Source: Raillietiella orientalis
Taxonomy: Eukaryota
Direction: 5' to 3'
Assembly: GCA_036172245.1 (NCBI GenBank)
Contig: JAYWIR010000046.1
Location: forward strand, 1,426,001 to 1,490,000
DNA length: 64,000 nt
The notes under the pieces are model-generated. The model saw only the letters and a program-made list of their open reading frames with translations. It did no database searches and was not told the origin of the DNA. The first letter of the stretch is position 1; each line of letters begins with the position of its first letter. Of this stretch, positions 10,114-64,000 are shown piece after piece. Both the position numbers and the translations under genes were made by a program.

Positions 10114-10146
<33 letters not shown>
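10114..10146 (+). repeat. Poly(A) tract, 33 nt
   Basis: Directly visible. Confidence 0.95.
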
Positions 10147-27615: not shown

Positions 27616-27621
27616 AGTGTA

Positions 27622-34357: not shown

Positions 34358-36881
<2,524 letters not shown>

Positions 36882-41234: not shown

Positions 41235-41239
<5 letters not shown>

Positions 41240-41268
<29 letters not shown>
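41240..41268. repeat. (AT)n microsatellite
   Basis: Directly visible. Confidence 0.95.
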
Positions 41269-41271
<3 letters not shown>

Positions 41272-41519
41272 CCTAATGTATCTATATATATGTGTGTAGG
41301 TAATTATATATATATATTGGGTGTATATGTGTGACAAGAAAATTTAGAAATAGGAAAATGCAGATTTGTCACGATCTAGCTGAGAAAGAATGCTTTATGA
41401 TACAAAAAAATAGCAGAAGCTTCACACTGCAATATATCATTTCAGTTTGCGATGCCTTTCATATGATTGCAGTTGTGATGCTAATTTTTTAACTTAATTG
41501 ACACTTCATCTTTCAATAC

Positions 41520-42300
41520 GCACAAACGTTGAATTCGGATTACCGTGATGTAGCCATCTCTGTATACAAAGAAAACACAGCACTCACACATTGTATGTTC
41601 GTTCTAACTGTGATCAAAGAGCATTGATTTTTTGATTCGCTACTCTCACTTCTAACCAAATTTTGCAAAACATCTATTATGTATTCGATGTATTTAATAC
41701 GATTGCACTTGTACCGCTTGTTTATTTCAACCAGTTCTTCTGAAAGTATGCATGAAAGCTGAATCAGAATACTCTTGAGAGTTACTATCACCGTCTACAA
41801 GAAATACGGCATACTTTCACACTTTGTGTATTCATTGAAACTGAGATGAAACAGCCGCGAGTTATGGATTCCCCACTGTAATTAGTGACCAAAGTTTGCA
41901 TTATGTGTTTCAATTTCTCGACTGACTCCATATGATTGCACCAGTATCACTAATGGTACATGCTAATTTTCTAACTTTACTGGCTTTTTATCCTTTGGGA
42001 ATGCAGGCTCGGATTACCGTGTTGTTTGCTGTCTCTGTATCCCTTGGTTTACATTGAAGTCGATCACGTTCCGGAGGAATGGCGAGGAGGGAACAGATTT
42101 TGATCTGCCGTGTTGCTAAGGTAACAAATATTTGAAACACAGAGAAGTGATTCTTTGAGAAAGATCCTGGCAAGGAAAAGGATTTCCATTGGATTCACAT
42201 TTGTACATAAATCCAAATAACCCGTTTTCTCTCTTTCATTCAAGCGCAAATCGCCGGTAAAACCCAAGCGTTTAACTACATATCCCACATACACATTAGA
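41520..42300 (-). pseudogene. Discoidin (F5/8C) domain relic(s) with ~475-bp periodicity
   Basis: One frame with stops: ASKVRKL...GAIIWSQ...LWSLITVGNP*LAAVSSQ...V*KYAVFLVDGDSNSQEYSDS...TF. The motif tcggattaccgtg...tctctgtat recurs at ~41535 and ~42009. Confidence 0.5.
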
Positions 42301-42525
42301 TAATATAATTATGTAACATAAAAATATTAACATACATAATATATTCATAACATAATAATATTAATTTCATACCTGATTTTAAATATACTGTTTATATTAA
42401 ATCTTGAAAGTGAATGAAAATATTCTTTGATTTATACTAAACTATATTTATTATATCTTGCACTGAGTATGAAACCCTTGGTTTACTTTGAAATCTCTCG
42501 CGTGGGGAGACCCATACTTCATTTA

Positions 42526-43360
42526 GGGCGGGGCACATTGGACTCTGTGTTGCTTTCATGGCAACCGGTGTTGGAAATAAAAAGGGGAAGTTTTATTTCC
42601 CACTGATTGATAAAGGCGTGGACGTCCCGGGAACTAGCGGACGCTACAAGCTCGAGTGTCCCGCCAAATGGAATTGTGCGCGGGGTCGAGCTGCTCGGCA
42701 TGCCTCCGGAGGAGGTGAAGTGGCCCCCGGCGTATTGGGACAGTGGCACCCTCCCTTTGGATTGGCAGGAGACGGCGCTGCTTGTGCTCCATTGGGGACT
42801 TTTAAGCAGAGCACGTCTGTCTCACTGGACATTGGGGAGATTGGATGCCCATTGTGCAGAGTGTGGGGAAAGGGAGACCTTCCCCCACTTACTCATCGAA
42901 TGTGTTGCCCTCCGCCGAACGTGGTATCGACTCTTGTCGGCCATAAACGTAGCGGTGGGCGACCCTAAAAACATTTTTCGTCGCCTCTTGATACGGAACT
43001 CCCTGCCAGGTGCCGCGTGTGTTGCAGTTCTCTTTCGGGAAATATTGGACAAGTGGAACGCGTCAATTAGAGGCCGCAGTAGTCGGAATGCCATCCACTG
43101 GGCAGTCATCTCCATGGAGAAGGCTTCCCGTTGGCGCCGGCTAAGTAAAATTCGGCCAGCACTTGTTCGCATCCAGAACCTCCCCACGGCGAATTGTAAT
43201 CCCTTTCCTTCCCTCCCCTCCCCATAATCATTGTCCCCCAAGCGTTTTTACTTTTTTTGTTCTTTTTTTTCCCTTTTTCCCCTCCCCTTCGCCAGTAGAG
43301 AAGGCCTTACCGGAAAGGCCGGAACAAGTCGGAAAGGACAAGTGCATAAGAAAATAAGAG
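42526..43360 (+). mobile_element. Tx1/L1-like LINE, internally deleted copy (5' motif, C-terminal zinc-binding region, 3' UTR)
   Basis: ORF 42607-43227 contains CAECGERETFPHLLIEC (CCHC zf-RVT-type) and is followed by a pyrimidine-rich 3' UTR. Confidence 0.8.
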
Positions 43361-43459
43361 CAATGTGTTCTGACAGGAACACAAATACAGACGACCGCAA
43401 TTAATAATTGTAAAATTTTTTTAATACTAAAAGTCCCTGCTTACCCGGGTGAAAGATTT

Positions 43460-45680
43460 GGGCGGGGCACATTGGACTCTGAGTTGTTGCACCGAGGTGT
43501 CGCGCGACCTCGCGAGACTCCTCGGTGGAAAAAAGAGCCCTCCCATACGAAACTAGTGGACAACGTCCAGGAACTGACGAGACTCCTTCAGCCGAAGCGA
43601 TGCCCGTCTACCAGGACAACGACCAGCCGCCTCCCATACAGAAGATACCACCATCAACAGAGTGATGCGCGGAATCGCCTCTTGCCGGCACTTACGCATA
43701 GCCTGTTGGAATGTCAACGGGCTTCGTGACGAAGGCAAGAGGCGCGGCGTGGCCGACATCCTGCGACCTTTCGACCTGGCACTTCCCCAAGAGGTACACG
43801 CTCTCAGAGGAGAGGACATTCAGGAGAATCGAGAGGTTCACAGGAGGGAGGCTACTATAGCGTTCCGGTGGAGACCACTCCCGCAGAGTGGCCTCCCTGC
43901 TGAAGCCAGCCGTCGCTAATGCGATGCGCACTGTACAGTTCGACGTATTCACTCGGTCAAGCCGGGGCGTTTATTGAAAAACTTTCCGACAGTGTTTGCG
44001 GTACAAGGCTGGAGCAGGGAAGCAGGCCTGGCAATCCGAGTCTGCCTGCTTACTGGACGAAGAAGGCCAGGAGCAATCCACTCCAGCGCAGGTTTGCCGC
44101 ATCTTGCGGGATTTTTACTCCTCCCTCTAAGAGAGGAAAACATCAGAGCGCGTCTTTGCGCAGCGTCTGCTGCCAGAGGGAGCGCCTGCGCTAAGGGAGG
44201 AGCAACTTCACCACTTAGACCAAGAAATCACGAAGACGGAGATTATCTCCGCCATCGTGAAACTAAAAAAACATAGAGCACCAGGGAAAAACGGCCTGCC
44301 AGCGGAATTCTATCAACACTTCGCGACAGAGCTGGAGCCCCTGGTGCACAAATTATGTACGCTGATCCGTGAACGTGGGGATGTTCCCAACTCGTTCCGA
44401 TCAGCTGGAGTACGTCTCCTGCCCAAGGGAGACTTGCGCAACGTTGACAACTGGCGTCCCATCACTATAGTGAATGCGGACGCGAAGTTGCTTGCGAAAC
44501 TCTGGTCTCAGCGACTGGGACGGGTAGCGGAATCCGTGGTCAGTCCGGAACAGACTTACGCTGTTCCCGGACGAACCATGGAGGCCAACCTGTTCCTCAC
44601 CAGCAGCTGGTGGCAGTTGCAACAAAGCGAGGCTCAGCTAGGTCGTGAGAGTCTTGGACTCCACAGATCGAAGGAGGGCAGCCGAAGGGGAGAAGTGGCG
44701 CCCGGAGCCCTTGCGGTCGCAATCGATCTGCGTAAAGCTTTCGACAGCGTCGAACAGGAACTCCTCCTGGAGCTTCTGGAACGCATGGGATTTCCAGCCG
44801 ACTTCCTGGCCTACCTGCGCTCTTGCTGGCGCCTCACATACATCAATATATGTTTCAGCGGCCGGCATGTGTACGGCGAGCCGGTTCGTCGCGGCATCCG
44901 GCAGGGCGACAGCGTCAGCCCCCTGCTCTTCAGAATCTACTTTGAGTAGGTGCTGAGAGCATACAGGGAGACTTTGGCAACACTGCACAGCTCGTGTCCC
45001 GGCACGCCTGCCGTGTCGGCCTATGCGGAAGACCTTCTGCTCCTGCTCACCGGGTCCACCCCGGCATCGGCGCACGACGATTTCTTCGAGTTGCTGCGCC
45101 GCGGGTCACGCCTCGAGGTGAACAGGACGAAGCCGTCGATCATCTTCACTGACTCGCCGTTGACAGGGCGCTCCGACTGGATCCGCTTGGCGATCCCCAC
45201 AGGGGGGTGCATCAGGTACCTTGGCGTTTTGTTGGGGGACTTCTGCATTGCAGAAGTCGGGTTCGACCGTCTTCTTGGAGTAAGCGATCGGCCCGCACCG
45301 ACGGCAAGGGACGGCAAGTTTTACTTGCGGAAACGGGCCGCGGAGTGGAACACCTCTGAGGCCCCCCCACTTTGCCCACTACTTTTTATGTGTCCTGCAC
45401 CTCACCAAATTAGGATACGGACAAGGGACCTCATCAGGAAAGCCCTTTGGGTCAACCAGAGGCCACGCGTCCGACTAAAAGACATGCGCGCTCCACGAAG
45501 GGAAAGTGGACTTGGTATTCTGACGTTGCAGCGAATGAAGCGACACATCCAACTAACAAAACTTCCCTTTGGAACAAAATATTGGACAGCAACATGGTGT
45601 GCTAACTTACGACTCGGCCACACGGCAAGCGGCTGTGATGGACTGACAACAGCACTCGTGACCAACGAAGGTACAATGTA
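43460..45680 (+). mobile_element. Tx1/L1-like LINE ORF2 (partial APE endonuclease and RT), pseudogenised and 3'-truncated
   Basis: IACWNVNGL...QEVH (APE N-terminus), APGKNGLPAEFY, NWRPITIVNADAK, IDLRKAFDSV, GIRQGDSVSPLLF, AYAEDL, IRYLGV and PRRESGLG. In-frame TAG at 44947-44949. Confidence 0.93.
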
Positions 45681-45739
45681 AAATTGTGGTTCACATCCAC
45701 GTAAACAAGAGGCCCTGATGAACAGAAACCCATGCATCT

Positions 45740-46232
45740 TCTGGAGCCCCGCAAACTGGACAAGCTGGCTGCAACCAAAAAACTGCACCTTCGCACCCGC
45801 AGTCCACTTTCGAAACTCCAACCGTATATAATTGTAACAATAAGCACTTTTGAAACAATGCAGCAGTTGCAAAATGAGTTTTGATCTAAATTAAGCAACG
45901 AATGAAAGGCAAATTGTAACGATTTCTAAAATGCATTTCTTTAAAAAAATAAAGGCATCAAGTCGTTTAAAAGGTTCGATGGCGATTAAACGTAACAGAA
46001 ATTGCTTTTCTATGCACATCACTCGATGCAAACCTATAATTCAGCATTAGCTATGCATTTCAAAAACGTTTGCCCAGTCTTTCTATCAGGACTGCTCAAA
46101 ATGGCAAACCTCGTATAAAGCTGTTGCAAAATGTACGCAAAGAAGAAAATGCCAGGTTGCTCGCAAGACTACGATAAACAAGACAAGATATTCTTAGTTT
46201 GCAAAAGGAGATCGAATTAGAAATACAGACAG
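45740..46232 (-). pseudogene. Diverged non-amplified subunit of the array; clearest discoidin C-terminus
   Basis: LHCFKSAYCYNYIRLEFRKWTAGAKVQFFGC (cf. F.PPI.ARYIRL.P..W...I.LR.E..GC). Nucleotide similarity to both halves of the 2.2-kb unit. Confidence 0.6.
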
Positions 46233-49200
46233 CTACACATGTAGTGTCATTTTATGAAAACAAAACAGAAACGTAACAACCTCGTCGTAATTGCTGTCAC
46301 TTGGAAGGCAATAACTCGAACTTCCTACAACCACTTTCCAATGTTTCTCGGAATATGGAATACAACATTGGTGTCTCTTCCTTTGTCGGAATCGGTTAAT
46401 TTCTTCATAGCGAACATGCCATGGAAGCTATCTCACAGGAAAACAGCTGTTGTGGAACAAGAGTCAAGATATCTTTGCTCCTTCAATTCAAAGAATATAA
46501 AAGCGTGTCCTTTGATTCGCAACCTTAGTTTCCTGGACAACGAAACAGATGTCAGAGTGTACAATCCCTTGGAAAAAATACCTATTCATCATTGTTCATA
46601 TTTCCAGCCTGAAATTGACTACATTTGCGAAGATGATATCAAGAATGCGGATGCGTGTTCTTCCTAGCAGGAAATAATTAGCTCTGCATGAGAATACAAA
46701 CGAAACTCATTGAAAATGTCAACTCAATATAATAACTCAATACAGAACAGAAGTCACCAACTATCTAAAACAACAGGAATGCTTGTTGACGATTTTCAAC
46801 ATTAGTTGCTACGTTATGAATTCCGTAGTGAATCGGTTGTCACTTGCTGCCATGTCGATGACACTGGAATTGTCAGGTCCCACCAAAAAATTGCAGATTC
46901 CCAATGGCAGTCGATTTGCGACTTGTCAACCGTATGAAACCGAAACAATCGGTGCATTCAAAATGAGATCAGCAGATGCACGCTAAATTTTAATCACAAT
47001 TACGTTAAGAAAGCAAGGAAAATAGTAAAATTTTCCAAATTGCGCTGCCTAAATGGCGTCCGCATTTGCAGTGCAACCTTCAACTTTGTAACGATTCAGC
47101 TATGCAGAAATTGCCTCTCTTTGCAAATGAGTCGACGTCAACACCTAGATCAGAAATCGCGATGCAACTGAAACTGTTTTGCCTGTTTTTATTGTTTCTA
47201 TGAGCATGCCGCAACTTGGCAAACCTCGTCGATCGAGGTTGCGAATTTTTTAGAAAAATTGTAAATAGCAGGCTGTATCGAAGAATAATGTTGATAAAAC
47301 AAGTTATTCTTTGTTTGTCCAAGCAGATCGAAATCGAAATAAAGAGAGGTGAGGGTGTAGTGCCATTGCAGAATCAAAGAAAAGGAACGAGAAACATCTT
47401 TGCTGTTAATGTACTGGGAACGCAGTAACTAGGACTTCCGACGTAGATTTTCTAGTGTGTCTGGGTATATTCAATAGCACTTACGTGGGTGCTCTTTTGC
47501 CGCCATGGGCGACATTCATGTGAAAGCACAAGAGCGGAAAGGTCTTTTGCAGAGACAACCTTGTCTTGGAACTGCCGTGGAAAGATCTATGATTTGTAGT
47601 TTACTTTGGCTCTGAATGTTTGGTCTTCACTTTGTGACATTCGTTTCCATGACAATGGGATGGATTTAGAGTGTTCATTTCTTTGGAAGGAAAGGAAAGT
47701 CCGTGTTCTTTATCGCTGTTGTCTTGAACTGTTATCTTCTGTGGAGTATATGTGTGAAGTACGCCGATGCATTCTCATCAAAGCAACGAAAATATACCTG
47801 TGCGTAGAAAGTGGAAAGCAACCGAATGCAGACATTAGTTTGCTCGAAAGAATTACTTCGGCACAGACGTAACCAAATCCTAGAGGAGAACGAGTGCTAT
47901 TACAGGAATTGCTTCATTCGTTTAGGCGACAATTATTCTGTAACAAATCAGTTGTGTCGCACAGAAATGTCGATGGAACTGGACATATTAATGCTCACCG
48001 AAAAATTGCACCTGCGCTCCTGTAATCCAGATTTGGATTTAGACGGTATGTGATCCGAACCATCGAATCTTTGCAGTTGAGTGTTAGAGATGCGTATTTC
48101 GTTATGTTTTTGATAGCCAAACGAATTCAACGCAAATTCAATTCTTAGAAAGTTTTCCCTTCTCAAATAGTGTTATTATTTCGATTGAAACGCTCTGCTT
48201 TATGGCGAAGAACCATGGGAAGAACTGCTTATGTTTGCGCATCAGTCGACGTGCACACATCGAGACACTATAGATATTCAAACCAGCTGCACAGGGTTTG
48301 AATCCGCTTTGCGCCACTTAAAGAACCTGTCTATGGCTGTGCTTATGCTTTCCGAGAATCAAAATGACAACTAGCGTTGAAATGTTAGTAACCAAGTGTA
48401 GGCATTCTTCGTTCGTCGACACAGATCGAATGGCCAATCCAAGCAGCTAGAGATGTAGTGTCATTTTATGAGAACAAAACAGAAAAGTAACAACCTTGTC
48501 GTCATTGCTGCCACATGGAAGGCAATAACTCGAACTTCCGACAAACAATTCCCAATGTTTCTCGGAATATGGAATACAACATTGGAGTCTCTTCCTTTGT
48601 CGGAATCGGTTAATTTCTTCATAGCGAAGATGCCATGGAAGCTGTCTCACAGGAAAACAGCTGTTGTGGAACGAGAGTCAAGATATCTTTGCTCCTTCAA
48701 ATTCGAAGAATATAAAAGGGTGTCATTTGATCCGCAAACTTGGTTTCCTGGACAACGAAAGAGATGTCGGAGTGTACAATCTCTTGGAAGAAATAACTAT
48801 TCATCATTGTTCACGACAGCAGTCTAAATTTGACATGATTTGCAAAGATGATATCAAGAATACGGATGCGTGATCTTCCTAGAAGGATATAATTAGCTCT
48901 GCCTGGGAAAACAAGCAAAACTCATTGAAAATGTCAACATAATATAATATCTGATACAGAACAGAAGTCACCAACAATCTAAAACAACAGGAATGCTTGT
49001 TGACGATTTTCAACATTAGTTGCTACGTTATGAATTCCGTAGTGAATCGGTTGTCACTTGCTGCCATGTCGATGACACTGGAATTGTCAGGTCCCACCAA
49101 AAAATTGCAGATTCCCAATGGCAGTCGATTTGCGACTTGTCAACCGTATGAAACCGGAACAATCGGTGCATTTGAAATGAGATCAGCAGATGCATGCTAA

Positions 49201-52200
49201 ATTTTAATCACAATTACGTTAAGAAAGCAAGGAAAATAGTAAAATTTTCCAAATTGCGCTGCTTGAATGGCGTCCGCATTTGCAGTGCAACCTTCAACTT
49301 TGTAACGATTCAGCTATGCAGAAATTGCCTCTTGCACATCAGTCGACGTCCACACCTAGATCAGAATTCGCGATGCAACTGAAACTGTTTTGCCAGTTTT
49401 TATTGTTTCTATAGGCATGGCGCAACTTGGCAAACCTCAATGATCGAGGTTGCGAATTTTTAGAAAAATTGTAAATAGCAGGCTGTATCGAAGAATAATG
49501 TTGATAAAACAAGTTATTCTTGTTTGTCCAAGCAGATCGGAATCGAAATAAAGAGAGGTGAGGGTGTAGTGCCATTGCAGAATAAAAGAAAAGGAACGAA
49601 AAACATCTTTGCTGTTAATGTACTGGGAACGGAGTAACTAGGACTTCCGACGTAGATTTTCTTGTGTGTCTCGGTATATTGAATAGCACTTACGTGGGTG
49701 CTCTTTTGCCGCCATGGACGACATTCATGTGAAAGCACAAGAGCGGAAAGGTCTTTTGCAGAGACAACCTTGTCTTGGAACTGCCGTGGAAAGATCTATG
49801 ATTCGTAGTTTACTTTGGCTCTGAATGTTTGGTCTTCACTTTGTGACTTTCGTTTCCATGACAATGGGATGGATTTAGAGTGTTCATTTCTTTGGAAGGA
49901 AAGGAAAGTCCGTGTTCTTTATCGCTGTTGTCTTGAACTGTTATCTTCTATGGAGTACATGTGTGAAGTATGCCGATGCATTCTCATCAAAGCAACGAAA
50001 ATATACCTGTGCGTAAAAAGTGGAAAGGAACCGAATGAAGACATTAGTTTGCTCGAAAGAATTACTTCGGCACAGACGTAACCCAATCCTAGAGGAGAAC
50101 GAGTGCTATTACAGGAATTGCTTCATTCGTTCAGGCGACAATTATTCTGTAACAAATCGGTTGTGTCGCACAGAAATGTCGATGAGACTGGACATATTAG
50201 TGCTCACCGAAATATTGCACCTGCGCTCCTGTAATCCAGAGATTTTGACGGTATGTGATCCGAACCATCGAATCTTTGCAGTTGAGTGTGAGAGATGCGT
50301 ATTTCAAGTTGTTTTCGATAGCCAAACGAATTCAACGCAGATTGAATTCTTAGAAAATTTTCCTTTCTCAAATAGTGTTATTATTTCGATTGAAACGCTC
50401 TGCTTTATGGCGAAGAACCATGGGAAGAACTGCTTATGTTTGCGCATCAGTCGACGTGCACACATAATTCCATTACCTTCTTATTAGATATTCAAACCTT
50501 TAGTTAGGGTTTGAATCCGCTTTGCGCCACTTAAAGAACTCTGTCTAAGTGGCTGTGCTTATGCTTTCCGAGAATCAAAATGACAACTAGCGTTGAAATG
50601 TTAGTAACCAAGGGTGGCATTCGTTCGTCGACACAGATCGAATGGCCAATCCAAGCAGCTAGAGATGTAGTGTCATTTTATGAAAACAAAACAGAAAAGT
50701 AACAACCTCGTCGTCATTGCTGTTACATGGAAGGCAATAACTCGAACTTGCGACAAGCAATTCCCAATGTTTCTCGGAATATGGAATACAACATTGGTGT
50801 CTCTTCCTTTGTCGGAATCGGTTAATTTCTTCATAGCGAAGATGCCATGGAAGCTGTCTCACAGGAAAACAGCTGTTGTGGAACGAGAGTCAAGATATCT
50901 TTGCTCCTTCAAATTCGAAGAATATAAAAGGGTGTCATTTGATCCGCAAACTTGGTTTCCTGGACAACGAAAGAGATGTCAGAGTGTACAATCTCTTGGA
51001 AGAAATAACTATTCATCATTGTTCACGACAGCAGTCTAAATTTGACATGATTTGCAAAGATGATATCAAGAATACGGATGCGTGATCTTCCTAGGAGGAT
51101 ATAATTAGCTCTGCCTGGGAAAACAAGCAAAACTCATTAAAAATGTCAACATAATATAATAACTGATACAGAACAGAAGTCACCAACTATCTAAAACAAC
51201 AGGAATGCTTGTTGACGATTTTCAACATTAGTTGCTACGTTATGAATTCCGTAGTGAACTTGGTTGTCACTTGCTGCCATGTCGATGACACACTGGAATT
51301 GTCAGGTCCCACCAAAAATTGCAGATTCCCAATGGCAGTCGATTTGCGACTTGTCAACCGTATGAAACCGGAACAATCGGTGCATTTGAAATGAGATCAG
51401 CAGATGCATGCCTAAATTTTAATCACAATTACGTTAAGAAAGCAAGGAAAATAGTAAAATTTTCCAAATTGCGCTGCTTAAATGGCGTCCGCATTTGCAG
51501 TGCAACCTTCAACCTTGTAACGATTCAGCTATGCAGAAATTGCCTCTCTTTGCACATCAGTCGACGTCCACACCTAGATCAGAATTCGCGATGCAACTGA
51601 AACTGTTTTGCCAGTTTTTATTGTTTCTATAGGCATGGCGCAACTTGGCAAACCTCGTCGATCGAGGTTGCGAATTTTTAGAAAAATTGTAAATAGCAGG
51701 TCATATCGAAGAATAATGTTGATAAAACAAGTTATTCTTGCTGTCCAAGCAGATCGGAATCGAAATAAAGAGAGGTGAGGGTGTAGTGCCATTGCAGAAT
51801 AAAAGAAAAGGAACGAAAAACATCTTTGCTGTTAATGTACTGGGAACGCAGTAACAAGGACTTCCGACGTAGATTTTCTAGTGTGTCTCGGTATATTGAA
51901 TAGCACTTACGTGGGTGCTCTTTTGCCGCCATGGGCGACATTTATGTGAAAGCACAAGAGCGGAAAGATCTTTTGCAGAGACAACCTTGTCTTGGAACTG
52001 CAGTGGAAAGATCTATGATTCGTAGTTTACTTTGGCTCTGAATGTTTGGTCTTCACTTTGTGACATTCGTTTCCATGACAATGGGATGGATTTAGAGTGT
52101 TCATTTCTTGAAAGAAAAAAGACCGTGTTCTTTATCGCTGTTGTCTTGAACTGTTATTTTCTGTGGAGTATATGTGTGAAGTATGCCGATGCATTCTCAT

Positions 52201-55200
52201 CAAAGCAACTGAAATATACTGTGCGTAGAAAATGGAAAGCAACCGAATGCAGACATTAGTTTCCTCGAATGAATTACTTCGACACAGACGTAACCAAATC
52301 CAAGAGTAGAACGAGTGCTATTACAGGAATTGTTTTATTTCGTTTTTACATACCATTCTGTAACAAATCAGTTGTGTCGCACAGAAATGTCGATGGAACT
52401 GGACATATTAGTGCTCACCGAAAAATTGCACCTGCGCTCCCTGTAATCCAGATTTGGATTTAGACGGTATGTGATCCGAACCATCGAATCTTTGCAGTTG
52501 AGTGTTAGAGATGCGTATTTCGTTATGTTTTCGATAGCAAAACGAATTCAACGCAGATTTAATTCTTAGAAAATTTTGCTTTCTCAAATAGTGTTATTAC
52601 ATCGATTGAAACGCTCTCCTTTATGGCGAAGAACCATGGGAAGAACTGCTTATGTTTGCGCATCAGTCGACGTGCACACATGATTCTATATTAACCATAG
52701 ATATCCAAACCAGCGGTACAGGGTTTGAATCCGCTCTGCGCCACTTAACAAACTTTGTCTATCGCTGTGCTTATGCTTTCCGAGAATCAAAATGACAACT
52801 AGCGTTGAAATGTTAGTATTCAAGAAGGCATTCTTCGTTCGTCGACACAGATCGAATGGCCAATCCAAGCAGCTAGAGATGTAGTGTCATTTTATGAAAA
52901 CAAAACAGAAAAGTAACAACCTCGTCGTCATTGCTGCCACATGGAAGGCAATAACTCGAACTTCCTACAACCAGTTTCCAATGTTTCTCGGAATATACAA
53001 TACAACATTGGTGTCTCTTCCTTTGTCGGAATCGGTTAATTTCTTCATAGCGAACATGCCATGGAAGCTATCTCACAGGAAAACAGCTGTTGTGGAACGA
53101 GAGTCAAGATATCTTTGCTCCTTCAAATTCGAAGAATATAAAAGGGTGTCATTTGATCCGCAAACTTGGTTTCCTGGACAACGAAAGAGATGTCAGAGTG
53201 TACAATCTCTTGGAAGAAATAACTATTCATCATTGTTCACGACAGCAGTCTAAATTTGACATGATTTGCATAGATGATATCAAGAATACGGATGCGTGAT
53301 CTTCCTAGAAGGATATAATTAGCTCTGCCTGGGAAAACAAGCAAAAAACATTAAAAATGTACACATAATATAATAACTGATACAGAACAGAAGTCACCAA
53401 CTATCTAAAACAACAGGAATGCTTGTTGACGATTTTCAACATTAGTTGCTACGTTATGAATTCCGTAGTGAATCGGTTGTCACTTGCTGCCATGTCGATG
53501 ACACTGGAATTGTCAGGTCCCACCAAAAAATTGCAGATTCCCAATGGCAGTCGATTTGCGACTTGTCAACCGTATGAAACCGAAACAATCGGTGCATTCA
53601 AAATGAGATCAGCAGATGCACGCTAAATTTTAATCACAATTACGTTAAGAAAGCAAGGAAAATAGTAAAATTTTCCAAATTGCGCTGCTTAAATGGTGTC
53701 CGCATTTGCAGTGCAACCTTCAACTTTGTAACGATTCAGCTATGCAGAAATTGCCTCCTTTGCACATCAGTCGACGTCAACACCTAGATCAGAAATCGCG
53801 GCAAGAAACTGAAACTGTTTTGCCAGTGTTTATTGTTTCTATGAGCATGCCGCAACTTGGCAAACCTCGTCGATCGAGGTTGCGAATTTAGAAAAATTGT
53901 AAATAGCAGGCTGTATCGAAGAATAATGTTGAAACATGTTATTCTTTGTTCGTCCAAGCAGATCGAAATCGAAATAAAGAGAGGTGAGGGTGTAGTGCCA
54001 TTGCAGAATAAAAGAAAAGGAACGAAAAACATCTTCGCTGTTAATGTACTGGGAACGCAGTAACTAGGACTTCCGACGTAGATTTTCTAATGTGTCTCGG
54101 TATATTGAATAGCACTTACGTGGGTGCTCTTTTGCCGCCATGGGCGACATTCATGTGGAAGCACAAGAGCGGAAAGATCTTTTGCAGAGACGAGCTTGTC
54201 TTGGAACTGCCGTGGAAAGATCTATGATTCGTAGTTCACTTTGGCTCTGAATGTTTGCTCTTCTATTTGTGACATTCGTTTCCATGACAATGGAATGGAT
54301 TTAGAGTGTTCATTTCTTTGGAAAGAAAGGAAAGACGGTGTTCTTTATCGCTGTTGTCTTGAACTGTTATTTTCTGTGGAGTATATGTGTGAAGTACGCC
54401 GATGCATTCTCATCATAGCAACGAAAATATACCTGTGCGTAGAAAGTGGAAAGCAGCCGAATGCAGACATTAGTTTGCTCGAAAGAATTACTTCGGCACA
54501 GACGTAACCAAATCCTAGAGGAGAACGAGTGCTATTACAGGAATTGCTTCATTCGTTTAGGCGACAATTATTCTGTAACAAATCGGTTGTGTCGCACAGA
54601 AATGTCGATGGAACTGGACATATTAGTGCTCTCCGAAAAATTGCACCTGCGCTTTTGTAATCCAGATTCGGATTTAGACGGTATGTGATCCGAACCATCG
54701 AATCTTTGCAGTTGAGTGTTAGAGATGCGTATTTCGTTATGTTTTCGATAGCCAAACGAATTCAACGCAGATTGACTTCTTAGAAAATTTTCCTTTCTCA
54801 AATAGTGTTATTATTTCGATTGAAACGCTCTGCTTCATGGCGAAGAACCATGGGAAGAACTGCTTATGTTTGCGCATCAGTCGACGTGCACACATAACTC
54901 TATATTAACTATAGATATTCAAACCAGCTGCACAGGGTTTGAATCCGCTTTGCGCCACTTAAAGAACTCTGTCTATGGCTGTGCTTATGCTTTCCGAGAA
55001 TCAAAATGACAACGAGCGTTGAAATGTTAGTAACCAAGTGTAGGCATTCTTCGTTCGTCGACACAGATCGAATGGCCAATCCAAGCAGCTAGAGATGTAG
55101 TGTCATTTTATGAGAACAAAACAGAAAAGTAACAACCTTGTCGTCATTGCTGCCACATGGAAGGCAATAACTCGAACTTCCTACAACCAATTTTAATGTT

Positions 55201-58200
55201 TCTGGAATATGGAATACAACATGTCTCTTCCTTCGTCGGAATCGGTTAATTTCTTCATAGCGAAGATGCCATGGAAGCTGTCTCACAGGAAAACAGCTGT
55301 TGTGGAACGAGAGTCAAGATATCTTTGCTCCTTCAAATTCGAAGAATATAAAAGGGTGTCATTTGATCCGCAAACTTGGTTTCCTGGACAACGAAAGAGA
55401 TGTCGGAGTGTACAATCTCTTGGAAGAAATAACTATTCATCATTGTTCACGACAGCAGTCTAAATTTGACATGATTTGCAAAGATGATATCAAGAATACG
55501 GATGCGTGATCTTCCTAGAAGGATATAATTAGCTCTGCCTGGGAAAACAAGCAAAACTCATTGAAAATGTCAACATAATATAATATCTGATACAGAACAG
55601 AAGTCACCAACAATCTAAAACAACAGGAATGCTTGTTGACGATTTTCAACATTAGTTGCTACGTTATAAATTCCGTAGTGAATCGGTTGTCACTTGCTGC
55701 CATGTCGATGACACTGGAATTGTCAGGTCCCACCAAAAAATTGCAGATTCCCAATGGCAGTCGATTTGCGACTTGTCAACCGTATGAAACCGGAACAATC
55801 GGTGCATTTGAAATGAGATCAGCAGATGCATGCTAAATTTTAATCACAATTACGTTAAGAAAGCAAGGAAAATAGTAAAATTTTCCAAATTGCGCTGCTT
55901 GAATGGCGTCCGCATTTGCAGTGCAACCTTCAACTTTGTAACGATTCAGCTATGCAGAAATTGCCTCTCTTTGCACATCAGTCGACGTCCACACCTAGAT
56001 CAGAATTCGCGATGCAACTGAAACTGTTTTGCCAGTTTTTATTGTTTCTATAGGCATGGCGCAACTTGGCAAACCTCGTCGATCGAGGTTGCGAATTTTT
56101 AGAAAATTGTAAATAGCAGGCTGTAACTGAAGAATAATGTTGATAAAACAAGTTATTATTCTTTGTTTGTCCAAGCAGATCGGAATCGAAATAAAGAGAG
56201 GTGAGGGTGTAGTGCCATTGCAGAATAAAAGAAAAGGAACGAAAAACATCTTTGCTGTTCATGTACTGGGAACGCAGTAACTAGGACTTCCGACGTAGAT
56301 TTTCTAGTGTGTCTCGGTATATTCAATAGCACTTACGTGGGTGCTCTTTTGCCGCCATGGGCGACATTCATGTGAAAGCACAAGAGCGGAAAGGTCTTTT
56401 GCAGAGACAACCTTGTCTTGGAACTGCCGTGGAAAGATCCATGATTCGTAGTTTACTTTGGCTCTGAATGTTTGTTCTTCACTTTGTGACATTCATTTCC
56501 ATGACAATGGGATGGATTTAGAGTGTTCATTTCTTTGGAAGGAAAGGAAAGTCCGTGTTCTTTATCGCTGTTGTCTTGAACTGTTATCTTCTATGGAGTA
56601 CATGTGTGAAGTATGCCGATGCATTCTCATCAAAGCAACGAAAATATACCTGTGCGTAAAAAGTGGAAAGGAACCGAATGAAGACATTAGTTTGCTCGAA
56701 AGAATTACTTCGGCACAGACGTAACCAAATCCTAGAGGAGAACGAGTGCTATTACAGGAATTGCTTCATTCGTTCAGGCGACAATTATTCTGTAACAAAT
56801 CGGTTGTGTCGCACAGAAATGTCGATGGGACTGGACATATTAGTGCTCACCGAAATATTGCACCTGCGCTCCTGTAATCCAGATTCTGATTTAGACGGTA
56901 TGTGATCCGAACCATCGAATCTTTGCAGTTGAGTGTTAGACATGCGTATTTCGTTATGTTTTCGATAGCCAAACGAATTCAACGCAGATTTAATTCTTAG
57001 AAAATTTTCCTTTTTCAAATAGTGTTATTATTTCGATTGAAACGCTCTGCTTTATGGCGAAGAACCATGGGAAGAACTGCTTATCTTTGCGCATCAGTCG
57101 ACGTGCACACATGATTCTATATTAACCATAGATATCCAAACCAGCGGTACAGGGTTTGATTCCGCTCTGCGCCACTTAAAAAACTTTGTCTATCGCTGTG
57201 CTTATGCTTTCCGAGAATCAAAATGACAACTAGCGTTGAAATGTTAGTATCCAAGAAGGCATTCTTCGTTCGTCGACACAGATCGAATGGCCAATCCAAG
57301 CAGCTATAGATGTAGTGTCATTTTATGAAAACAAAACAGAAAAGTAACAACCTCATCGTCATTGCTGCCTCATGGAAGCCAATAACTCGAACTTCCGACA
57401 AGCAATTCCCAATGTTTCTCGGAATATGGAATACAACATTGGTGTATTTTGCTTTGTCGGAATCGGTTAATTTCTTCATAGCGAACAAGCCATGGAAGCT
57501 GTCTTGCAGGAAAACAGCTGTAGTGTAACAAGAGTCAAGATATCTTTGCTCCTTCAAATTCGAAGAATATAAAAGGGTGTCATTTGTTTCGCAACCTTTG
57601 TTTCCTGGACAACGAAACAGATGTCGGAGGTGCACTCACGGTAGAAAGGGAGGAAGTCATCATTGTTCACGACAGCAGTCTAAATTTGACATGATTTGCA
57701 TAGATGATATCAAGAATACGGATGCGTGATCTTCCTAGAAGGATATAATTAGCTCTGCCTGGGAAAACAAGCAAAACTCATTAAAAATGTCAACATAATA
57801 TAATAACTGATACAGAACAGAAGTCACCAACTATCTAAAACAACAGGAATGCTTGTTGACGATTTTCAACATTAGTTGCTACGTTATGAATTCCGCAGTG
57901 AATCGGTTGTCACTTGCTGCCATGTCGATGACACTGGAATTGTCAGGTCCCACCAAAAAATAGCAGATTCCCAATGGCAGTCGATTTGCGACTTGTCAAC
58001 CGTATGAAACAAAAACAATCGGTGCATTTGAAATGAGATCAGCAGATGCATGCTAAATTTTAATCACAATTACGTTAAGAAAGCAAGGAAAATAGTAAAA
58101 TTTTCCAAATTGCGCTGCTTAAATGGCGTCCGCATTTGCAGTGCAACCTTCAACTTTGTAACGATTCAGCTATGCAGAAATTGCCTCTCTTTGCACATCA

Positions 58201-61200
58201 GTCGACGTCCACACCTAGATCAGAATTCGCGATGCAACTGAAACTGTTTTGCCAGTTTTTATTGTTTCTATAGGCATGGCGCAACTTGGCAAACCTCGTC
58301 GATCGAGGTTGCGAATTTTTAGAAAAATTGTAAATAGCAGGCTGTATCGAAGAATAATGTTGATAAAACAAGTTATTCTTTGTTTGTCCAACCAGATCGA
58401 AATCGAAATAAAGAGATGTGAGGGTGTAGTGCCATTGCAGAATAAAAGAAAAGGAACGAAAAACATCTTTGCTGTTAATGTACTGGGAACGCAGTAACTA
58501 GGACTTCCGACGTAGATTTTCTAGTGTGTCTCGGTATATTCAATAGCACTTACGTGGGTGCTCTTTTGCCGCCATGGGCGACATTCATGTGAAAGCACAA
58601 GAGCGGAAAGGTCTTTTGCAGAGACAACCTTGTCTTGGAACTGCAGTGGAAAGATCTATGATTCGTAGTTTACTTTGGCTCTGAATGTTTGGTCTTCACT
58701 TTGTGACATTCGTTTCCATGACAATGGGATGGATTTAGAGTGTTCATTTCTTTGGAAGGAAAGGAAAGTCCGTGTTCTTTATCGCTGTTGTCTTTAACTG
58801 TTATCTTCTGTGGAGTACATGTGTGAAGTATGCCGATGCATTCTCATCAAAGCAACGAAAATATACCTGTGCGTAAAAAGTGGAAAGGAACCGAATGAAG
58901 ACATTAGTTTGCTCGAAAGAATTACTTCGGCACAGACGTAACCAAATCCTAGAGGAGAACGAGTGCTATTACAGGAATTGCTTCATTCGTTCAGGCGTCA
59001 ATTATTCTCTAACAAATCGGTTGTGTCGCACAGAAATGTCGATGGGACTGGACATATTAGTGCTCACCGAAATATTGCACCTGCGCTCCTGTAATCCAGA
59101 TTCGGATTTAGACGGTATGTGATCCGAACCATCGAATCTTTGCAGTTGAGTGTTAGACATGCGTATTTCGTTATGTTTTCGATAGCCAAACGAATTCAAC
59201 GCAGATTGAATTCTTAGAAAATTTTCCTTTCTCAAATAGTGTTATTATTTCGATTGAAACGCTCTGCTTTATGGCGAAGAACCATGGGAAGAACTGCTTA
59301 TGTTTGCGCATCAGTCGACGTGCACACATAATTCTATAATAACTATAGATATTCAAACCAGCTGCACAGGGTTTGAATCCGCTTTGCGCCACTTAAAGAA
59401 CTCTGTCTATGGCTGTGCTTATGCTTTCCGAGAATCAAAATGACAACTAGCGTTGAAATGTTAGTAACCAAGTGTAGGCATTCTTCGTTCGTCGACACAG
59501 ATCGAATGGCCAATCCAAGCAGCTAGAGATGTAGTGTCATTTTATGAAAACAAAACAGAAAAGTAACAACCTCGTCGTCATTGCTGTTACATGGAAGGCA
59601 ATAACTCGAACTTCCGACAAGCAATTCCCAATGTTCCTCGGAATATGGAATACAACATTGGTGTCTCTTCCTTTGTCGGAATCGGTTAATTTCTTCATAG
59701 CGAACATGCCATGGAAGCTATCTCACAGGAAAACAGCTGTTGTGGAACGAGAGTCAAGATATCTTTGCTCCTTCAAATTCGAAGAATATAAAAGGGTGTC
59801 ATTTGATCCGCAAACTTGGTTTCCTGGACAACGAAAGAGATGTCAGAGTGTACAATCTCTTGGAAGAAATAACTATTCATCATTGTTCACGACAGCAGTC
59901 TAAATTTGACATGATTTGCAAAGATGATATCAAGAATACGGATGCGTGATCTTCCTAGGAGGATATAATTAGCTCTGCCTGGGAAAACAAGCAAAACTCA
60001 TTAAAAATGTCAACATAATATAATAACTGATACAGAACAGAAGTCACCAACTATCTAAAACAACAGGAATGCTTGTTGACGATTTTCAACATTAGTTGCT
60101 ACGTTATGAATTCCGTAGTGAATCGGTTGTCACTTGCTGCCATGTCGATGACACTACGGTCAGGTCACCAAAAAATTGCAGATTCCCAATGGCAGTCGAT
60201 TTGCGACTTGTCAACCGTACGAAACGGAAACAATCGGTGCATTCGAAATGAGATCAGCAGATGCATGCTAAATTTGAATCACAATTATGTTAAGAAAGCA
60301 AGGAAAATAGTAAAATTTTCCAAATTGCGCTGCTTAAATGGTGTCCGCATGTGCAGTGCAACCTTCAACTTTGTAACGATTCAGCTAAGCAGAAATTGCC
60401 TCTCTTTGCACATCAGTCGACGTCCACACATAAATCAGAATTCGCGATGCAACTGAAACTGTTTTGCCAGTTTTTATTGTTTCTACGAGCATGGCGCTAC
60501 TTGGCAAGCCTCGTCGATCGAGGTTGCGAATTTTTAGAAAAATTGTAAATACTGTTCTGTATCGAAGATGAGTTTTTATAAAACAATTTATTCTTTGTTT
60601 GTCCAAGCAGATCGAAATTGAAATAAAGAGAGGTGAGGGTGTAGTGCCATTGCAGAATAAAAGAAAAGGAACGAAAAACATCTTTGCTGTTAATGTACTG
60701 GGAACGCAGTAACTAGGACTTTCGACGTAGATTTTCTAGTGTGTCTCGGTATATTCAATAGCACTTACGTGGGTGCTCTTTTGCCGCCATGGGCGACATT
60801 CATGTGAAAGCACAAGAGCGGAAAGGTCTTTTGCAGAGACAACCTTGTCTTGGAACTGCCGTTGAAAGATCTATGATTCGTAGTTTACTTTGGCTCTGAA
60901 TGTTTGGTCTTCAATTTGTGACATTCGTTTCCATGACAATGGGATGGATTTAGAGTGTTCATTTATTTGGAAGGAAAGGAAAGTCCGTGTTCTTTATCCC
61001 TGTTGTCTTGAACTGTTATGTTCTGTGGAGTATATGTGTGAAGTATGCTGATGCATTCTCATCAAAGCAACGAAAATATACCTGTGCGTAGAAAGTGGAA
61101 AGCAACCGAATGAAGACATTAGTTTGCTCGAAAGAATTACTTCGGCACAGACGTAACCAAATCCTAGAGGAGAACGAGCGCTATTACAGGAATTGCTTCA

Positions 61201-64000
61201 TTCGATGCTGCGACAATTCTTCTGTAACAAATCGGTTGTGTCGCACAGAAATGTCGATGGAACTGGACATATTAGTGCTCACCGAAAAATTGCACCTCCG
61301 CTTTTGTAATCCAGATTCGGATTCAGACGGTATGTGATCCGAACCAACGAATCTTTGCAGTTCGGTGTTAGAGATGCGTATTTCGTTATGTATTCGATAG
61401 CCAAACGAATTCAACGCAGATTTAATTCTTAGAAACTTTCCTTTTCTCAAATAGTGTTATTATTTCGATTGAAACGCTCTGCTTGATGGCGAAGAACCAT
61501 GGGAAGAACTGCTTATGTTTGCATCAGTCGACGTGCACACATAATTCTATATTAACTATAGATATTCAAACCAGCTGCACAGGGTTTGAACTAAGCCAGC
61601 GCCACTTAAAAAACTTTGTCTATCGCTGTGCTTATGCTTTCCGAGAATCAAAATGACAACTAGCGTTGAAATGTTAGTATTCAAGAAGGCATTCTTCGTT
61701 CGTCGACACAGATCGAATGGCCAATCCAAGCAGCTATAGATGTAGTGTCATTTTATGAAAACAAAACAGAAAAGTAACAACCTCATCGTCATTGCTGCCA
61801 CTTGAAAGGCAATAACTCGAACTTCCGACAACCAATTCCCAATGTTAATCTGAATATGGAATACAACATTGGTGTCTCTTCCTTTCTCGGAATCGGTTAA
61901 TTTCTTGATAGCGAACATTCCATGGAAGCTGTCTTACAGGAAAACAGCTATAGTGGAACAAGAGTCAAGATATCTTTGCTCCTTCAAATTCGAAGAATAT
62001 AAAAGGGTGTCATTTGATCCTCAAACTTGGTTTCCTGGACAACGAAAGAGATGTCAGAGTGTACAATCTCTTGGAAGAAATAACTATTCATCATTGTTCA
62101 CGACAGCAGTCTAAATTTGACATGATTTGCATAGATGATATCAAGAATACGGATGCGTGATCTTCCTAGAAGGATATAATTAGCTCTGCCTGGGAAAACA
62201 AGCAAAAAACATTAAAAATGTACACATAATATAATAACTGATACAGAACAGAAGTCACCAACTATCTAAAACAACAGGAATGCTTGTTGACGATTTTCAA
62301 CATTAGTTGCTACGTTATGAATTCCGTAGTGAATCGGTTGTCACTTGCTGCCATGTCGATGACACTGGAATTGTCAGGTCCCACCAAAAAAATTGCAGAT
62401 TCCCAATGGCAGTCGATTTGCGGACTTTGTCAACCGTATGAAACGGAAACAATCGGTGCATTCAAAATGAGATCTTCAGTTGCATGCTAAAGTTTAATCA
62501 TAATTATGTTAACAGAGCAAGGAAAATAGTGGAATTTTCCAAATTGCGCTGCTTAAATTGCGTCCGCATTTGCAGTGCAACCTTCATTTTTGTAACGATT
62601 CGGCTATGCAGAAATTGCCTCTCTTTGCACATCAGTCGACGTCAACACCTAGATCAGAAATCGCGATGCAACTGAAACTGTTTTGCCAGTTTTTATTGTT
62701 TCTACGAGCATGGCGCAACTTGGCAAGCCTCGACGATCGAGGTTGCGAATTTTTAGAAAAATTGTAAATAGTAGTCTATATCGAAGAATAATGTTGATAA
62801 AACAAGCTATTCTTTGTTTGTGCAAGCACATCGAAATCGAAATAAAGAGAGGTGAGTGTGTAGTGCCATTCCAGAATCAAAGAAAAGGAACGAGAAACAT
62901 CTTTGCTGTTAATGTACTGGGAACGCAGTAACTAGGACTTCCGACGTAGATTTTCTAGTGTGTCTCGGTATATTGAATAGCACTTACGTGGGTGCTCTTT
63001 GCCGCCATGGGCGACATTCATGGAAGCACAAGAGCGGAAAGATCTTTGCAGAGACGAGCTTGTCTTGGAACTGCCGTGGAAAAGATCTATGATTCGTAGT
63101 TTACTTTGGCTCTGAATGTTTGGTCTTCTATTTGTGACATTCGTTTTCATGACAATGGAATGGATTTAGAGTGTTCATTTCTTTGGAAAGAAAAAAAAGA
63201 CCGTGTTCTTTATCGCTGTTGTCTTGAACTGTTATTTTCTGTGGAGTATATGTGTGAAGTACGCCGATGCATTCTCATCAAAGCAACGAAAATATACCTG
63301 TGCGTAGAAAAGTGGAAAGCAAACTCGAATGCAGACATTAGTTTCCTCGAATGAATTACTTCGGCACAGACGTAACCAAATCAAAGAGTAGAACGAGTGC
63401 TATTACAGGAATTGAATCATTCGTTTCTACAATGATTATTCTTGTAACAAATCATCTTTTTCGCACAGAAATGTCGATGGAACTGGACATATTAATGCTC
63501 ACCGAAAAATTGCACCTGCGCTCCTGTAATCCAGATTTGGATTTAGACGGTATGTGATCCGAACCATCGAATCTTTGCAGTTGAGTGTTAGAGATGCGTA
63601 TTTCGTTATGTTTTCGATAGCCAAACGAATTCAACGCAGATTGAATTCTTAGAAAATTTTCCTTTCTCAAATAGTGTTATTATTTCGATTGAAACGCTCT
63701 GCTTTATGGCGAAGAACCATGGGAAGAACTGCTTATGTTTGCGCATCAGTCGACGTACACATAATTCTATATTAATTATAGATATTCAAACCAGCTGCAA
63801 CAGGTTTTGAATCCGCTTTGCGCCACTTAAAGAACTCTGTCTATGGCTGTGCTTATGCTTTCCGAGAATCAAACACAACTGGCGTTGAAATGTTAGTAAC
63901 CAAGTGTAGGCATTCTTCGTTCGTCGAGATCGAATGGCCAATCCAAGCAGCTAGAGATGTAGTGTCATTTTATGAGAACAAAACAGAAAAAGTAACAACC
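46233..64000 (-). repeat. Tandem array (macrosatellite) of ~2.21-kb units; 8 full copies plus the start of a 9th; runs off the window
   Basis: The anchor tgtagtgtcattttATG has its ATG at 46254, 48468, 50680, 52894, 55110, 57325, 59544, 61755 and 63972 (period 2211-2219). The unit appears derived from minus-strand discoidin-like coding sequence. Confidence 0.97.

What the first reader, a model, noticed from the sequence alone, without database searches (positions are those of the whole stretch)
46233..64000. The 2.2-kb macrosatellite is a hierarchical amplification of a decayed protein-domain repeat
Each unit has two diverged ~1.1-kb halves (catcagtcgacgt at ~48240 and ~49337; aligned blocks gtagtgYcatt and acttccgac). 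Differences between halves are often synonymous in one minus-strand frame: VVFHIPRNIGNCLSEVRVIAFHV vs VLLNIPRHTRKSTSEVLVTAFPV (gtt/gtg, att/ata, gtt/gtc, gcc/gcg), and QFFG with caa/cag and ttt/ttc. Domain-end motifs recur about every 550 bp, i.e. ~4 domains per unit. Many stop codons are shared between units, so the sequence probably decayed first and was amplified afterwards.
Basis: partly seen in the sequence, partly recalled or inferred. Interest (0 to 1): 0.75.

Follow-up and report, generated by a model that had tools for sequence, protein, structure and literature searches.

The report
Non-coding two-part 2.2-kb satellite repeat
This is an ordinary non-coding tandem repeat whose 2.2-kb unit is an old duplication of a 1.1-kb piece, and no test run here shows that it was ever a protein-coding sequence.

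Summary
The array is real. Eight full 2.2-kb units (92-96% alike) run head to tail from 46186 to the window end, preceded by a truncated, divergent edge copy at 45774-46185. Each unit consists of two homologous ~1.1-kb halves, 646 of 1076 aligned bases identical (60%), z about 77 against shuffles. So "hierarchical amplification" holds for two levels.

- No codon-position bias between halves (p = 0.53).
- No excess of synonymous changes in any of six frames (z from -2.4 to +0.95).
- The quoted 23-residue peptide pair is what chance gives (P = 0.36).
- Stops are shared between the halves in all six frames.
- No ~550-bp sub-period.
- No Pfam match, and no match for the one frame searched (+ strand) among 1.84 billion proteins.
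- Differences among units show no phase bias (p = 0.76), and 41 of 48 indels break the frame.

Best reading: a non-coding dimeric higher-order macrosatellite of an arthropod-like genome, beside LINE fragments and about 9 kb from housekeeping genes. This kind is known (potato 2D8, Rsp, alpha-satellite dimers). Low interest.

The parts
45774..46185 (+). Truncated, divergent edge monomer. It corresponds to the last ~410 bases of a 1.1-kb half-unit and marks the left boundary of the array.
   Evidence: blastn of a unit against the window hits 45774-45934 and 45996-46362 at 66-68%. Semi-global alignment: 266/395 (67%) to the tail of half A and 253/394 (64%) to the tail of half B, scores 202 and 110 against about 5 for shuffles. 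Nothing in 42000-45773 resembles the unit.
46186..63907 (+). Eight full 2.2-kb units in head-to-tail order, starting at 46186, 48400, 50612, 52826, 55042, 57257, 59476 and 61687.
   Evidence: the repeat finder spacings of 2209-2221. blastn of unit 2 against the window gives 92.5-96.5% over the full length. MAFFT identity matrix 0.916-0.963. One Logan contig of run X1 carries a 'goes back 2212' joint, which is the tandem junction.
63908..64000 (+). Start of a ninth unit, cut by the end of the window, so the array is open-ended.
   Evidence: blastn: unit positions 1-96 match 63908-64000 at 94.8%.
48400..49509 (+). Half A of reference unit 2 (consensus positions 1-1110).
   Evidence: Halves A and B align over 1076 columns with 646 identities and 27 ungapped blocks.
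49510..50611 (+). Half B of reference unit 2 (consensus positions 1111-2220).
   Evidence: Same alignment. blastn self-hits at an offset of about 1109: 118-177 with 1227-1286, 635-710 with 1745-1820.
49332..49358 (+). Best-conserved block between the halves (27 nt, holding CATCAGTCGACGT with a GTCGAC palindrome). Its partner in half B is at 50440-50466.
   Evidence: the repeat finder D1: 89% over 27 nt at spacing 1108. The 13-mer is exact in 15 of 15 half-units found. A 13-base identical run is what 60% identity predicts: null 12.4 +/- 2.5, P = 0.42.
44131..45681 (+). Flank, not part of the repeat: a non-LTR retrotransposon (LINE) reverse-transcriptase fragment that abuts the array. A second LINE tail lies at 42607-43227.
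   Evidence: Pfam RVT_1 at E = 4.5e-16 for 44131-44949, and zf-RVT at E = 3.8e-05 (below the curated cut-off) for 42607-43227. No similarity to the satellite unit.

Best explanation
The region is a non-coding macrosatellite with a dimeric higher-order structure.

Proposed history (inferred):
1. A ~1.1-kb segment of unknown origin was duplicated in tandem.
2. The copies drifted apart neutrally to about 60% identity.
3. A block of two adjacent, by then different, monomers (A and B) became the unit of amplification and homogenisation, by unequal crossing-over and gene conversion. This gave the present array of 2.2-kb units at 92-96% identity.
4. The array edge escaped homogenisation and keeps an older, third monomer variant.

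Shown here: the tandem order, the two levels of identity, the uniform and frame-blind divergence, the mosaic pattern among units, and the absence of any coding signal.

Not shown: the mechanism of spread, and any chromatin or other role. The array most likely has no sequence-specific function of its own.
For: - Tandem array of 8 full units plus a cut ninth, period 2209-2220. Units are 91.6-96.3% alike.
- Halves are 646/1076 identical, z about 77, with an autocorrelation peak at 1107/1113, z = 7.9.
- Jukes-Cantor distance is 0.571 between halves and 0.065 between units, about nine-fold older.
- Divergence between halves is uniform. The variance of 40-nt identity is not above permutation (P = 0.67) and the longest identical run is 13 against 12.4 expected.
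- The nearest neighbour of each unit changes from one 300-nt window to the next. Units 2 and 5, three units apart, are 100% identical over several windows, which is the mosaic expected from gene conversion or unequal exchange. Mean identity does not fall with distance over 1 to 4 units (0.938-0.940).
- The edge copy at 45774-46185 is 67% and 64% identical to the tails of A and B.
- Non-coding by phase tests: p = 0.53 between halves, and 122/131/120 variable columns among units, p = 0.76. The phase test would have power 0.76 if 30% of the divergence had accrued under an assumed coding pattern.
- Synonymous fraction is at null in all six frames.
- Stops are shared between the halves at 4, 5, 2, 6, 1 and 1 homologous codons in the six frames.
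- Each frame has 23-38 stops per 740 codons. The longest ORF is 122 codons, against a shuffle mean of 109 and a 95th percentile of 145. There is no period-3 power.
- Only 7 of 48 indels among units are multiples of 3.
- Pfam: 0 matches at or above the curated cut-off for 49 array ORFs of 50 aa or more, and 0 for six read-through frames over two units. In the same window Pfam finds HSP70, TatD, UQ_con and RVT_1, which serves as a positive control.
- phmmer of the read-through + frame of unit 2 against 1.84 billion representatives: 0 at E <= 0.001.
- Two word-index protein searches: 0 hits.
- No Rfam family and no tRNA.
Against: - Sites identical between A and B are somewhat less variable among units (odds ratio 0.65, p = 0.001). 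This fits site-to-site differences in mutation rate, but weak constraint on some positions would give the same result.
- Stop trinucleotides are fewer than dinucleotide shuffles predict on both strands (23-38 per frame against 38.9 +/- 6.2). By my arithmetic on those counts the shortfall is not confined to one frame.
- Two minus-strand frames share only one stop each between the halves.
- Only 8 units of one array were seen. Genome-wide abundance, chromosomal place and transcription are unknown, and no whole genome is held.
- A non-coding RNA product was not tested with expression data.
Confidence: 0.82

Rival explanations
1. One reading: the 1.1-kb monomer (or a ~550-bp quarter) descends from a protein-domain repeat that decayed and was then amplified.
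For: - Half-unit homology is real.
- Two minus-strand frames share only 1 stop each between the halves, against 2-6 in the other four frames.
- Stop trinucleotides are below the dinucleotide-shuffle expectation.
- The tests cannot see a coding past if all visible divergence accrued after decay. Power is only 0.05-0.32 when 10-20% of the divergence was under constraint.
Against: - No phase bias (p = 0.53; the best single block gives p = 0.026 among 6 tested).
- The synonymous fraction and residue identity are at null in every frame.
- The quoted peptide pair is not better than shuffles.
- No 550-bp level.
- No Pfam, PDB-sequence or large-library match.
- Half-unit and unit lengths (about 1109; 2209-2220) are not kept to multiples of 3.
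Confidence: 0.06
2. The monomer is a non-coding piece of a mobile element or of the rDNA spacer (for example a LINE untranslated region, a non-autonomous DNA transposon, or an IGS segment as in potato 2D8) that was captured and amplified. This concerns origin only and is compatible with the best explanation.
For: - LINE fragments abut the array (RVT_1 at E = 4.5e-16).
- Reviews state that TE-derived satellites are common and that almost any segment can be amplified (passages of PMC10048060). The 2D8 precedent is described in passages of PMC8122249.
Against: - No similarity between the unit and 42000-45773, on either strand (scores 18-24 against null maxima of 26-29).
- No terminal inverted repeats at unit or half-unit boundaries; the only inverted pairs are 14-24 nt at 75-87%.
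- No transposase or RT match in the read-through frames.
- No rRNA in the window.
Confidence: 0.15
3. A live gene whose tandem exon blocks are hidden by introns, or a functional long non-coding RNA or protein-binding array kept by selection.
For: - The 13-mer CATCAGTCGACGT is exact in 15 of 15 half-units found.
- A = B sites vary less among units (odds ratio 0.65).
- The array lies only about 9 kb from housekeeping genes.
Against: - Among-unit changes show no phase bias in any 300-nt window (13 windows, p from 0.24 to 1.0).
- 41 of 48 indels break the frame.
- A 13-base identical run is expected at 60% identity (P = 0.42).
- No Rfam family.
Confidence: 0.04

Closest known systems
Potato (Solanum bulbocastanum) 2D8 pericentric repeat: a 5.9-kb unit made of two diverged ~3-kb monomers (passages of PMC8122249)
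   Same: A kilobase-scale tandem unit that is itself a dimer of two diverged monomers, and non-coding.
   Different: 2D8 is homologous to the rDNA intergenic spacer, whereas no source sequence was found here. The unit here is 2.2 kb and the halves are only 60% alike. The organism is arthropod-like, not a plant. Chromosomal position is unknown here.
Dimeric and higher-order alpha satellite of primates, and the Drosophila Responder dimer (passages of PMC8122249)
   Same: Monomers inside the unit are far more divergent than neighbouring units. In alpha satellite the figures are about 70% against 97-100%; here they are 60% against 92-96%. The array edge keeps an older monomer form.
   Different: The monomer here is about 1.1 kb, not 120-171 bp. 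There is no relation to nucleosome length, no CENP-B-type box was shown, and only a dimer level exists, with no higher level.
Human macrosatellites: DXZ4 (3 kb, not obviously protein-coding; abstract of PMC3218863) and D4Z4 (3.3 kb). That D4Z4 holds the DUX4 ORF is implied by the title of PMC6451109 in the listing and otherwise recalled.
   Same: Unit size in the kilobase range, and an uninterrupted tandem array near genes.
   Different: D4Z4-type units carry an intact ORF; these carry none. DXZ4 is CpG-rich and binds CTCF; this array is 40% G+C with CpG observed/expected 1.06, and no factor is known. There is no sequence relation.
Regular and complex higher-order repeats in the beetle Tribolium castaneum (abstract of PMC5737470), and the 1.1-kb higher-order satellite noted elsewhere in this same genome (scan note e1-7593496, unchecked)
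   Same: Arthropod tandem repeats with long monomers and higher-order organisation. The scan note likewise found a proposed coding origin unproven.
   Different: No sequence likeness to other windows of the scan was found (0 windows). Whether the two satellites of this genome are related could not be tested.

Membership tests
Satellite DNA with higher-order (dimeric) repeat organisation | Head-to-tail tandem array of the unit | tested here: met
   8 full units at spacings of 2209-2221. A tandem joint also appears in a Logan contig.
Satellite DNA with higher-order (dimeric) repeat organisation | Monomers within the unit are homologous but much more divergent than neighbouring units | tested here: met
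   Halves are 60% identical (646/1076); units are 91.6-96.3% identical.
Satellite DNA with higher-order (dimeric) repeat organisation | Non-coding | tested here: met
   No ORF beyond chance, no phase bias, no family match.
Satellite DNA with higher-order (dimeric) repeat organisation | High copy number, long arrays, heterochromatic or centromeric place | not testable with these tools
   The array runs off the window end, no genome is held, and Logan contigs give no copy number.
Macrosatellite (unit of one to several kb) | Unit length in the kilobase range | tested here: met
   2209-2220 bp. Size class as defined in passages of PMC8122249.
Macrosatellite (unit of one to several kb) | Copy-number polymorphism between individuals | not testable with these tools
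   Only one DNA run holds the stretch, and only as contigs.
Coding tandem repeat (protein-domain array, or ORF-bearing macrosatellite of the D4Z4 type) | An open frame, or a frame with synonymous-biased divergence between copies | tested here: not met
   23-38 stops per frame per unit; synonymous fraction at null in six frames; phase p = 0.53 and 0.76.
Coding tandem repeat (protein-domain array, or ORF-bearing macrosatellite of the D4Z4 type) | Recognisable protein family or homologue | tested here: not met
   Pfam gives nothing at or above cut-off. PDB sequences: 0 for one minus frame. 1.84 billion representatives: 0 for one plus frame. Word-index searches: 0. Only one frame went to each of the large searches.
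Coding tandem repeat (protein-domain array, or ORF-bearing macrosatellite of the D4Z4 type) | Repeat and indel lengths kept to multiples of three | tested here: not met
   Unit lengths 2209-2220. Only 7 of 48 indels are multiples of 3.
Transposable-element-derived satellite | Homology of the monomer to an element (protein, terminal repeats, or flanking LINE) | tested here: inconclusive
   No match to the adjacent LINE, no terminal inverted repeats, no TE protein family. The genome's own element library could not be searched.

The most novel reading that the evidence does not exclude
The 1.1-kb monomer is the last trace of a lineage-specific gene or mobile-element ORF on the minus strand that lost its frame before the A/B duplication. 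The array would then be a fossil of a gene amplification, and the few positions kept between the halves and among units (for example the 27-nt block around CATCAGTCGACGT) would now serve as docking sites for a chromatin protein.
Probability: 0.05. Interest if true: 0.35.

Novelty: new member of a known kind. Interest (0 to 1): 0.12.

Why it matters
It matters little beyond annotation. The region should be masked as a satellite with a 2.2-kb dimeric unit, not searched for genes. It adds one more arthropod example of a kilobase-scale dimeric higher-order repeat lying close to housekeeping genes, with an older monomer preserved at the array edge. That may help anyone cataloguing this genome's satellites or studying how higher-order units arise. 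It is also a caution for raw-sequence reading: at 60-70% DNA identity, a run of apparently synonymous codon differences is what chance produces.

Tried and rejected
- Whole-genome search for other copies: no genome is held for this window.
- RNA evidence: no RNA holder was listed for the stretch. One DNA run held 0.22 of the words, and two further runs of the same study held next to none. This says nothing about expression.
- Laying run X1 gave only short contigs of variant copies and one tandem joint. It gave no copy number, and parts of the stretch were without cover.
- Rfam over the whole window: 0 matches at gathering score. tRNA scan: 0.
- Tandem Repeats Finder (period up to 500) sees nothing in the array, since the period is 2.2 kb.
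- A 4.4-kb third level was suspected because offset 4426 had the most shared 12-mers. It was rejected: mean identity at unit distances 1, 2 and 3 is 0.9376, 0.9385 and 0.9403.
- The 13-mer or 27-nt conserved block as a selected box: not longer than expected at 60% identity.
- Metagenome scan for the 22-nt conserved block: 0 matches.
- Earlier notes of this scan: none near the place, and none by sequence or among relatives.
- A literature search for the land-crab satellite that I recalled found no held paper naming it, so it is not used.
- The organism was not identified. "Arthropod-like" rests on unchecked scan notes and on intron-poor HSP70 exons.
Full report
**What is there**

The last 18 kb of the window is a head-to-tail array.
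- The repeat finder gives eight copies of every 300-nt probe at spacings of 2209-2221.
- blastn of one unit (48400-50611) against the window finds eight full-length copies at 92.5-100%, plus the first 96 bases of a ninth at the window end.
- A MAFFT alignment of the eight units gives pairwise identities of 0.916-0.963.
- Tandem Repeats Finder, limited to periods of 500 or less, reports nothing here.
- A short contig from the only public run that holds the stretch carries a "goes back 2212" joint, which is the tandem junction. That run may be the source sample, so it is not independent support.

**The two halves**

- On the majority consensus of the units (2220 nt), circular autocorrelation peaks at offsets 1107/1113 (z = 7.9) and nowhere else above z = 3.1 apart from the neighbouring offsets 1106/1114.
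- A gapped alignment of positions 1-1110 with 1111-2220 has 646 identities in 1076 columns. Its score is 248, against 5.8 +/- 3.1 for 50 shuffles.
- The quoted motifs are at the quoted places and alternate every ~1.1 kb.
- Jukes-Cantor distances are 0.571 between halves and 0.065 between neighbouring units. The half-unit duplication is therefore roughly nine times older than the spread of the present units.

**No further levels**
- Quarter against quarter gives nothing. Local scores are z = 0.2 (A1/A2) and -0.4 (B1/B2), against 8.7 and 10.4 for the true pairs A1/B1 and A2/B2.
- With the permissive scoring that detects the halves, and at three cut points, quarter pairs reach z <= 2.1 against 38-53 for the true pairs.
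- Offset 553 has z = 2.3 among 2219 offsets.
- There is no 4.4-kb level above the unit. Mean identity at unit distances 1, 2 and 3 is 0.9376, 0.9385 and 0.9403. The excess of 12-mers at offset 4426 probably reflects recurring spacings (2209 + 2217).

**Left edge and surroundings**
- Similarity to the unit begins at about 45774, not 46233.
- The 412 bases at 45774-46185 align to the tail of half A at 67% (266/395) and to the tail of half B at 64% (253/394). This is a third, older monomer variant, truncated on its left.
- Nothing between 42000 and 45773 resembles the unit on either strand.
- That flank holds LINE fragments: RVT_1 at E = 4.5e-16 for 44131-44949, and a weak zf-RVT for 42607-43227.
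- Further left lie ordinary genes: HSP70 exons at 35028-36878 (E down to 9e-97), a TatD DNase at 27625-28473 on the minus strand, and a ubiquitin-conjugating enzyme exon at 27243-27512.
- The array edge is thus about 9 kb from housekeeping genes. These hits also show that the Pfam procedure finds coding sequence in this window.

**Tests of the coding claim between the halves**
- Mismatch rates by phase are 0.376, 0.410 and 0.413 (chi-square p = 0.53). Of six ungapped blocks of 60 nt or more, one reaches p = 0.026, and its excess lies on a single phase with no support elsewhere.
- For each of the six frames I counted identical, synonymous and non-synonymous codon pairs and compared them with 300 within-block column shuffles. 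The synonymous fraction lies at z = +0.25, -2.37, -0.33, +0.54, +0.40 and +0.95. Residue identity lies at z from -2.9 to 0.0.
Shuffles reach 11 in 36% of trials in that frame and in 81% for the best of six. Another frame of the real pair gives 12.
- A simulation with an assumed 0.25/0.15/0.60 coding pattern gives the pooled phase test power 0.76 if 30% of the divergence had accrued under constraint, and 0.96 at 40%. The test is blind below about 20%.
- Homologous codons that are stops in both halves number 4, 5, 2, 6, 1 and 1 in the six frames. No frame is free of a stop that predates the A/B split or arose twice. The two low counts are on the minus strand; I do not regard them as significant, but I record them.

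**Tests on the units themselves**
- Each frame has 23-38 stops per 740 codons. Dinucleotide shuffles give 38.9 +/- 6.2.
- The totals per strand, 94 and 95, are below expectation. By my arithmetic on the counts, the split among frames (23/38/33 and 35/24/36) is not uneven (chi-square p about 0.16 and 0.25).
- The longest ORF is 122 codons, against a shuffle mean of 109 and a 95th percentile of 145.
- Period-3 power is 0.61 of the mean spectrum, below the shuffle median.
- Among the eight units, 373 columns vary, split 122/131/120 by phase (p = 0.76). None of 13 windows of 300 nt is below p = 0.24.
- Of 48 distinct indels, 7 are multiples of three.
- Ts/Tv is 0.88 and CpG observed/expected is 1.06.

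**Homology searches**
- Pfam on 49 stop-to-stop ORFs of 50 aa or more from the array (42 from the first two units and seven of the longer ones elsewhere, out of 162 listed): nothing better than E = 0.03, and nothing near a curated cut-off.
- Pfam on six read-through frames (X at stops) over two units: one chance-level row (E = 0.37).
- PDB sequences with one minus frame: 0.
- phmmer of the + frame with the fewest stops (737 residues, one unit) against 1.84 billion representatives: 0 at E <= 0.001.
- Only one frame could be sent to the largest search, so the minus frames were tested there only through Pfam and one ORF.

**How it evolves**
- Divergence between the halves is spread evenly. The variance of 40-nt identity is not above permutation (P = 0.67), and the longest identical run of 13 is as expected (P = 0.42).
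- The nearest relative of each unit changes from window to window. Units 2 and 5 are identical over several 300-nt windows although three units apart. This is the mosaic left by unequal exchange and conversion.
- Sites identical between A and B are less often variable among units (odds ratio 0.65, p = 0.001). I read this as rate heterogeneity, although weak constraint is not excluded.

**Comparison with known kinds**
- Passages of the review PMC8122249 describe the same architecture at other scales: alpha-satellite dimers and higher-order repeats (monomers about 70% alike, blocks 97-100%), the Drosophila Rsp dimer (two 120-bp monomers at 84%), and potato 2D8, a 5.9-kb unit made of two diverged ~3-kb monomers.
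- The same review places units of up to a few kilobases under macrosatellites.
- The abstract of PMC5737470 reports higher-order repeats in a beetle.
- The abstract of PMC3218863 describes DXZ4 as a 3-kb array that is not obviously protein-coding.
- An unchecked note of this scan (e1-7593496) reports another 1.1-kb higher-order satellite in the same genome, for which a coding (piggyBac) origin also failed. No sequence link to it was found.

**Verdict**

The region is a real, cleanly two-level, non-coding macrosatellite. The hierarchical part of the finding stands; the protein-domain part does not. It is a new member of a known kind, of low interest.

Noticed in passing
window 35028-36878 (+): Four long exons of a DnaK/mitochondrial-type HSP70 gene (Pfam HSP70, E from 3e-16 to 9e-97; one exon of 213 codons). 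The antisense ORFs hit PF10712 (NAD-GH). From recall, I take that as the usual antisense-of-HSP70 artefact.
   Followed up: partly
window 27243-28473: A ubiquitin-conjugating enzyme exon (27243-27512, +) lies tail to tail, about 110 bases apart, with a TatD-family DNase on the other strand (27625-28473, -).
   Followed up: no
window 1-9000: About 60% G+C with many overlapping open frames on both strands and no family searched. G+C then falls to about 31% by 26000-42000. This is a sharp compositional switch within one window.
   Followed up: no
window 42607-45681: Two LINE pieces in the same orientation, a zf-RVT tail and then an RVT_1 core. The second ends within about 90 bases of the array edge, with no poly(A) visible in 45681-45774.
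   Followed up: partly
window 10685-10771 and 17157-17243; 8000-8146 and 11261-11407: An 87-nt inverted repeat (93% complementary, arms 6.4 kb apart) and a 147-nt direct repeat (84%). These are probably dispersed-element fragments.
   Followed up: no
window 41240-41317 and 10114-10146, 28166-28192: An (AT)n microsatellite of 40 copies, and pure A33 and T27 runs.
   Followed up: no
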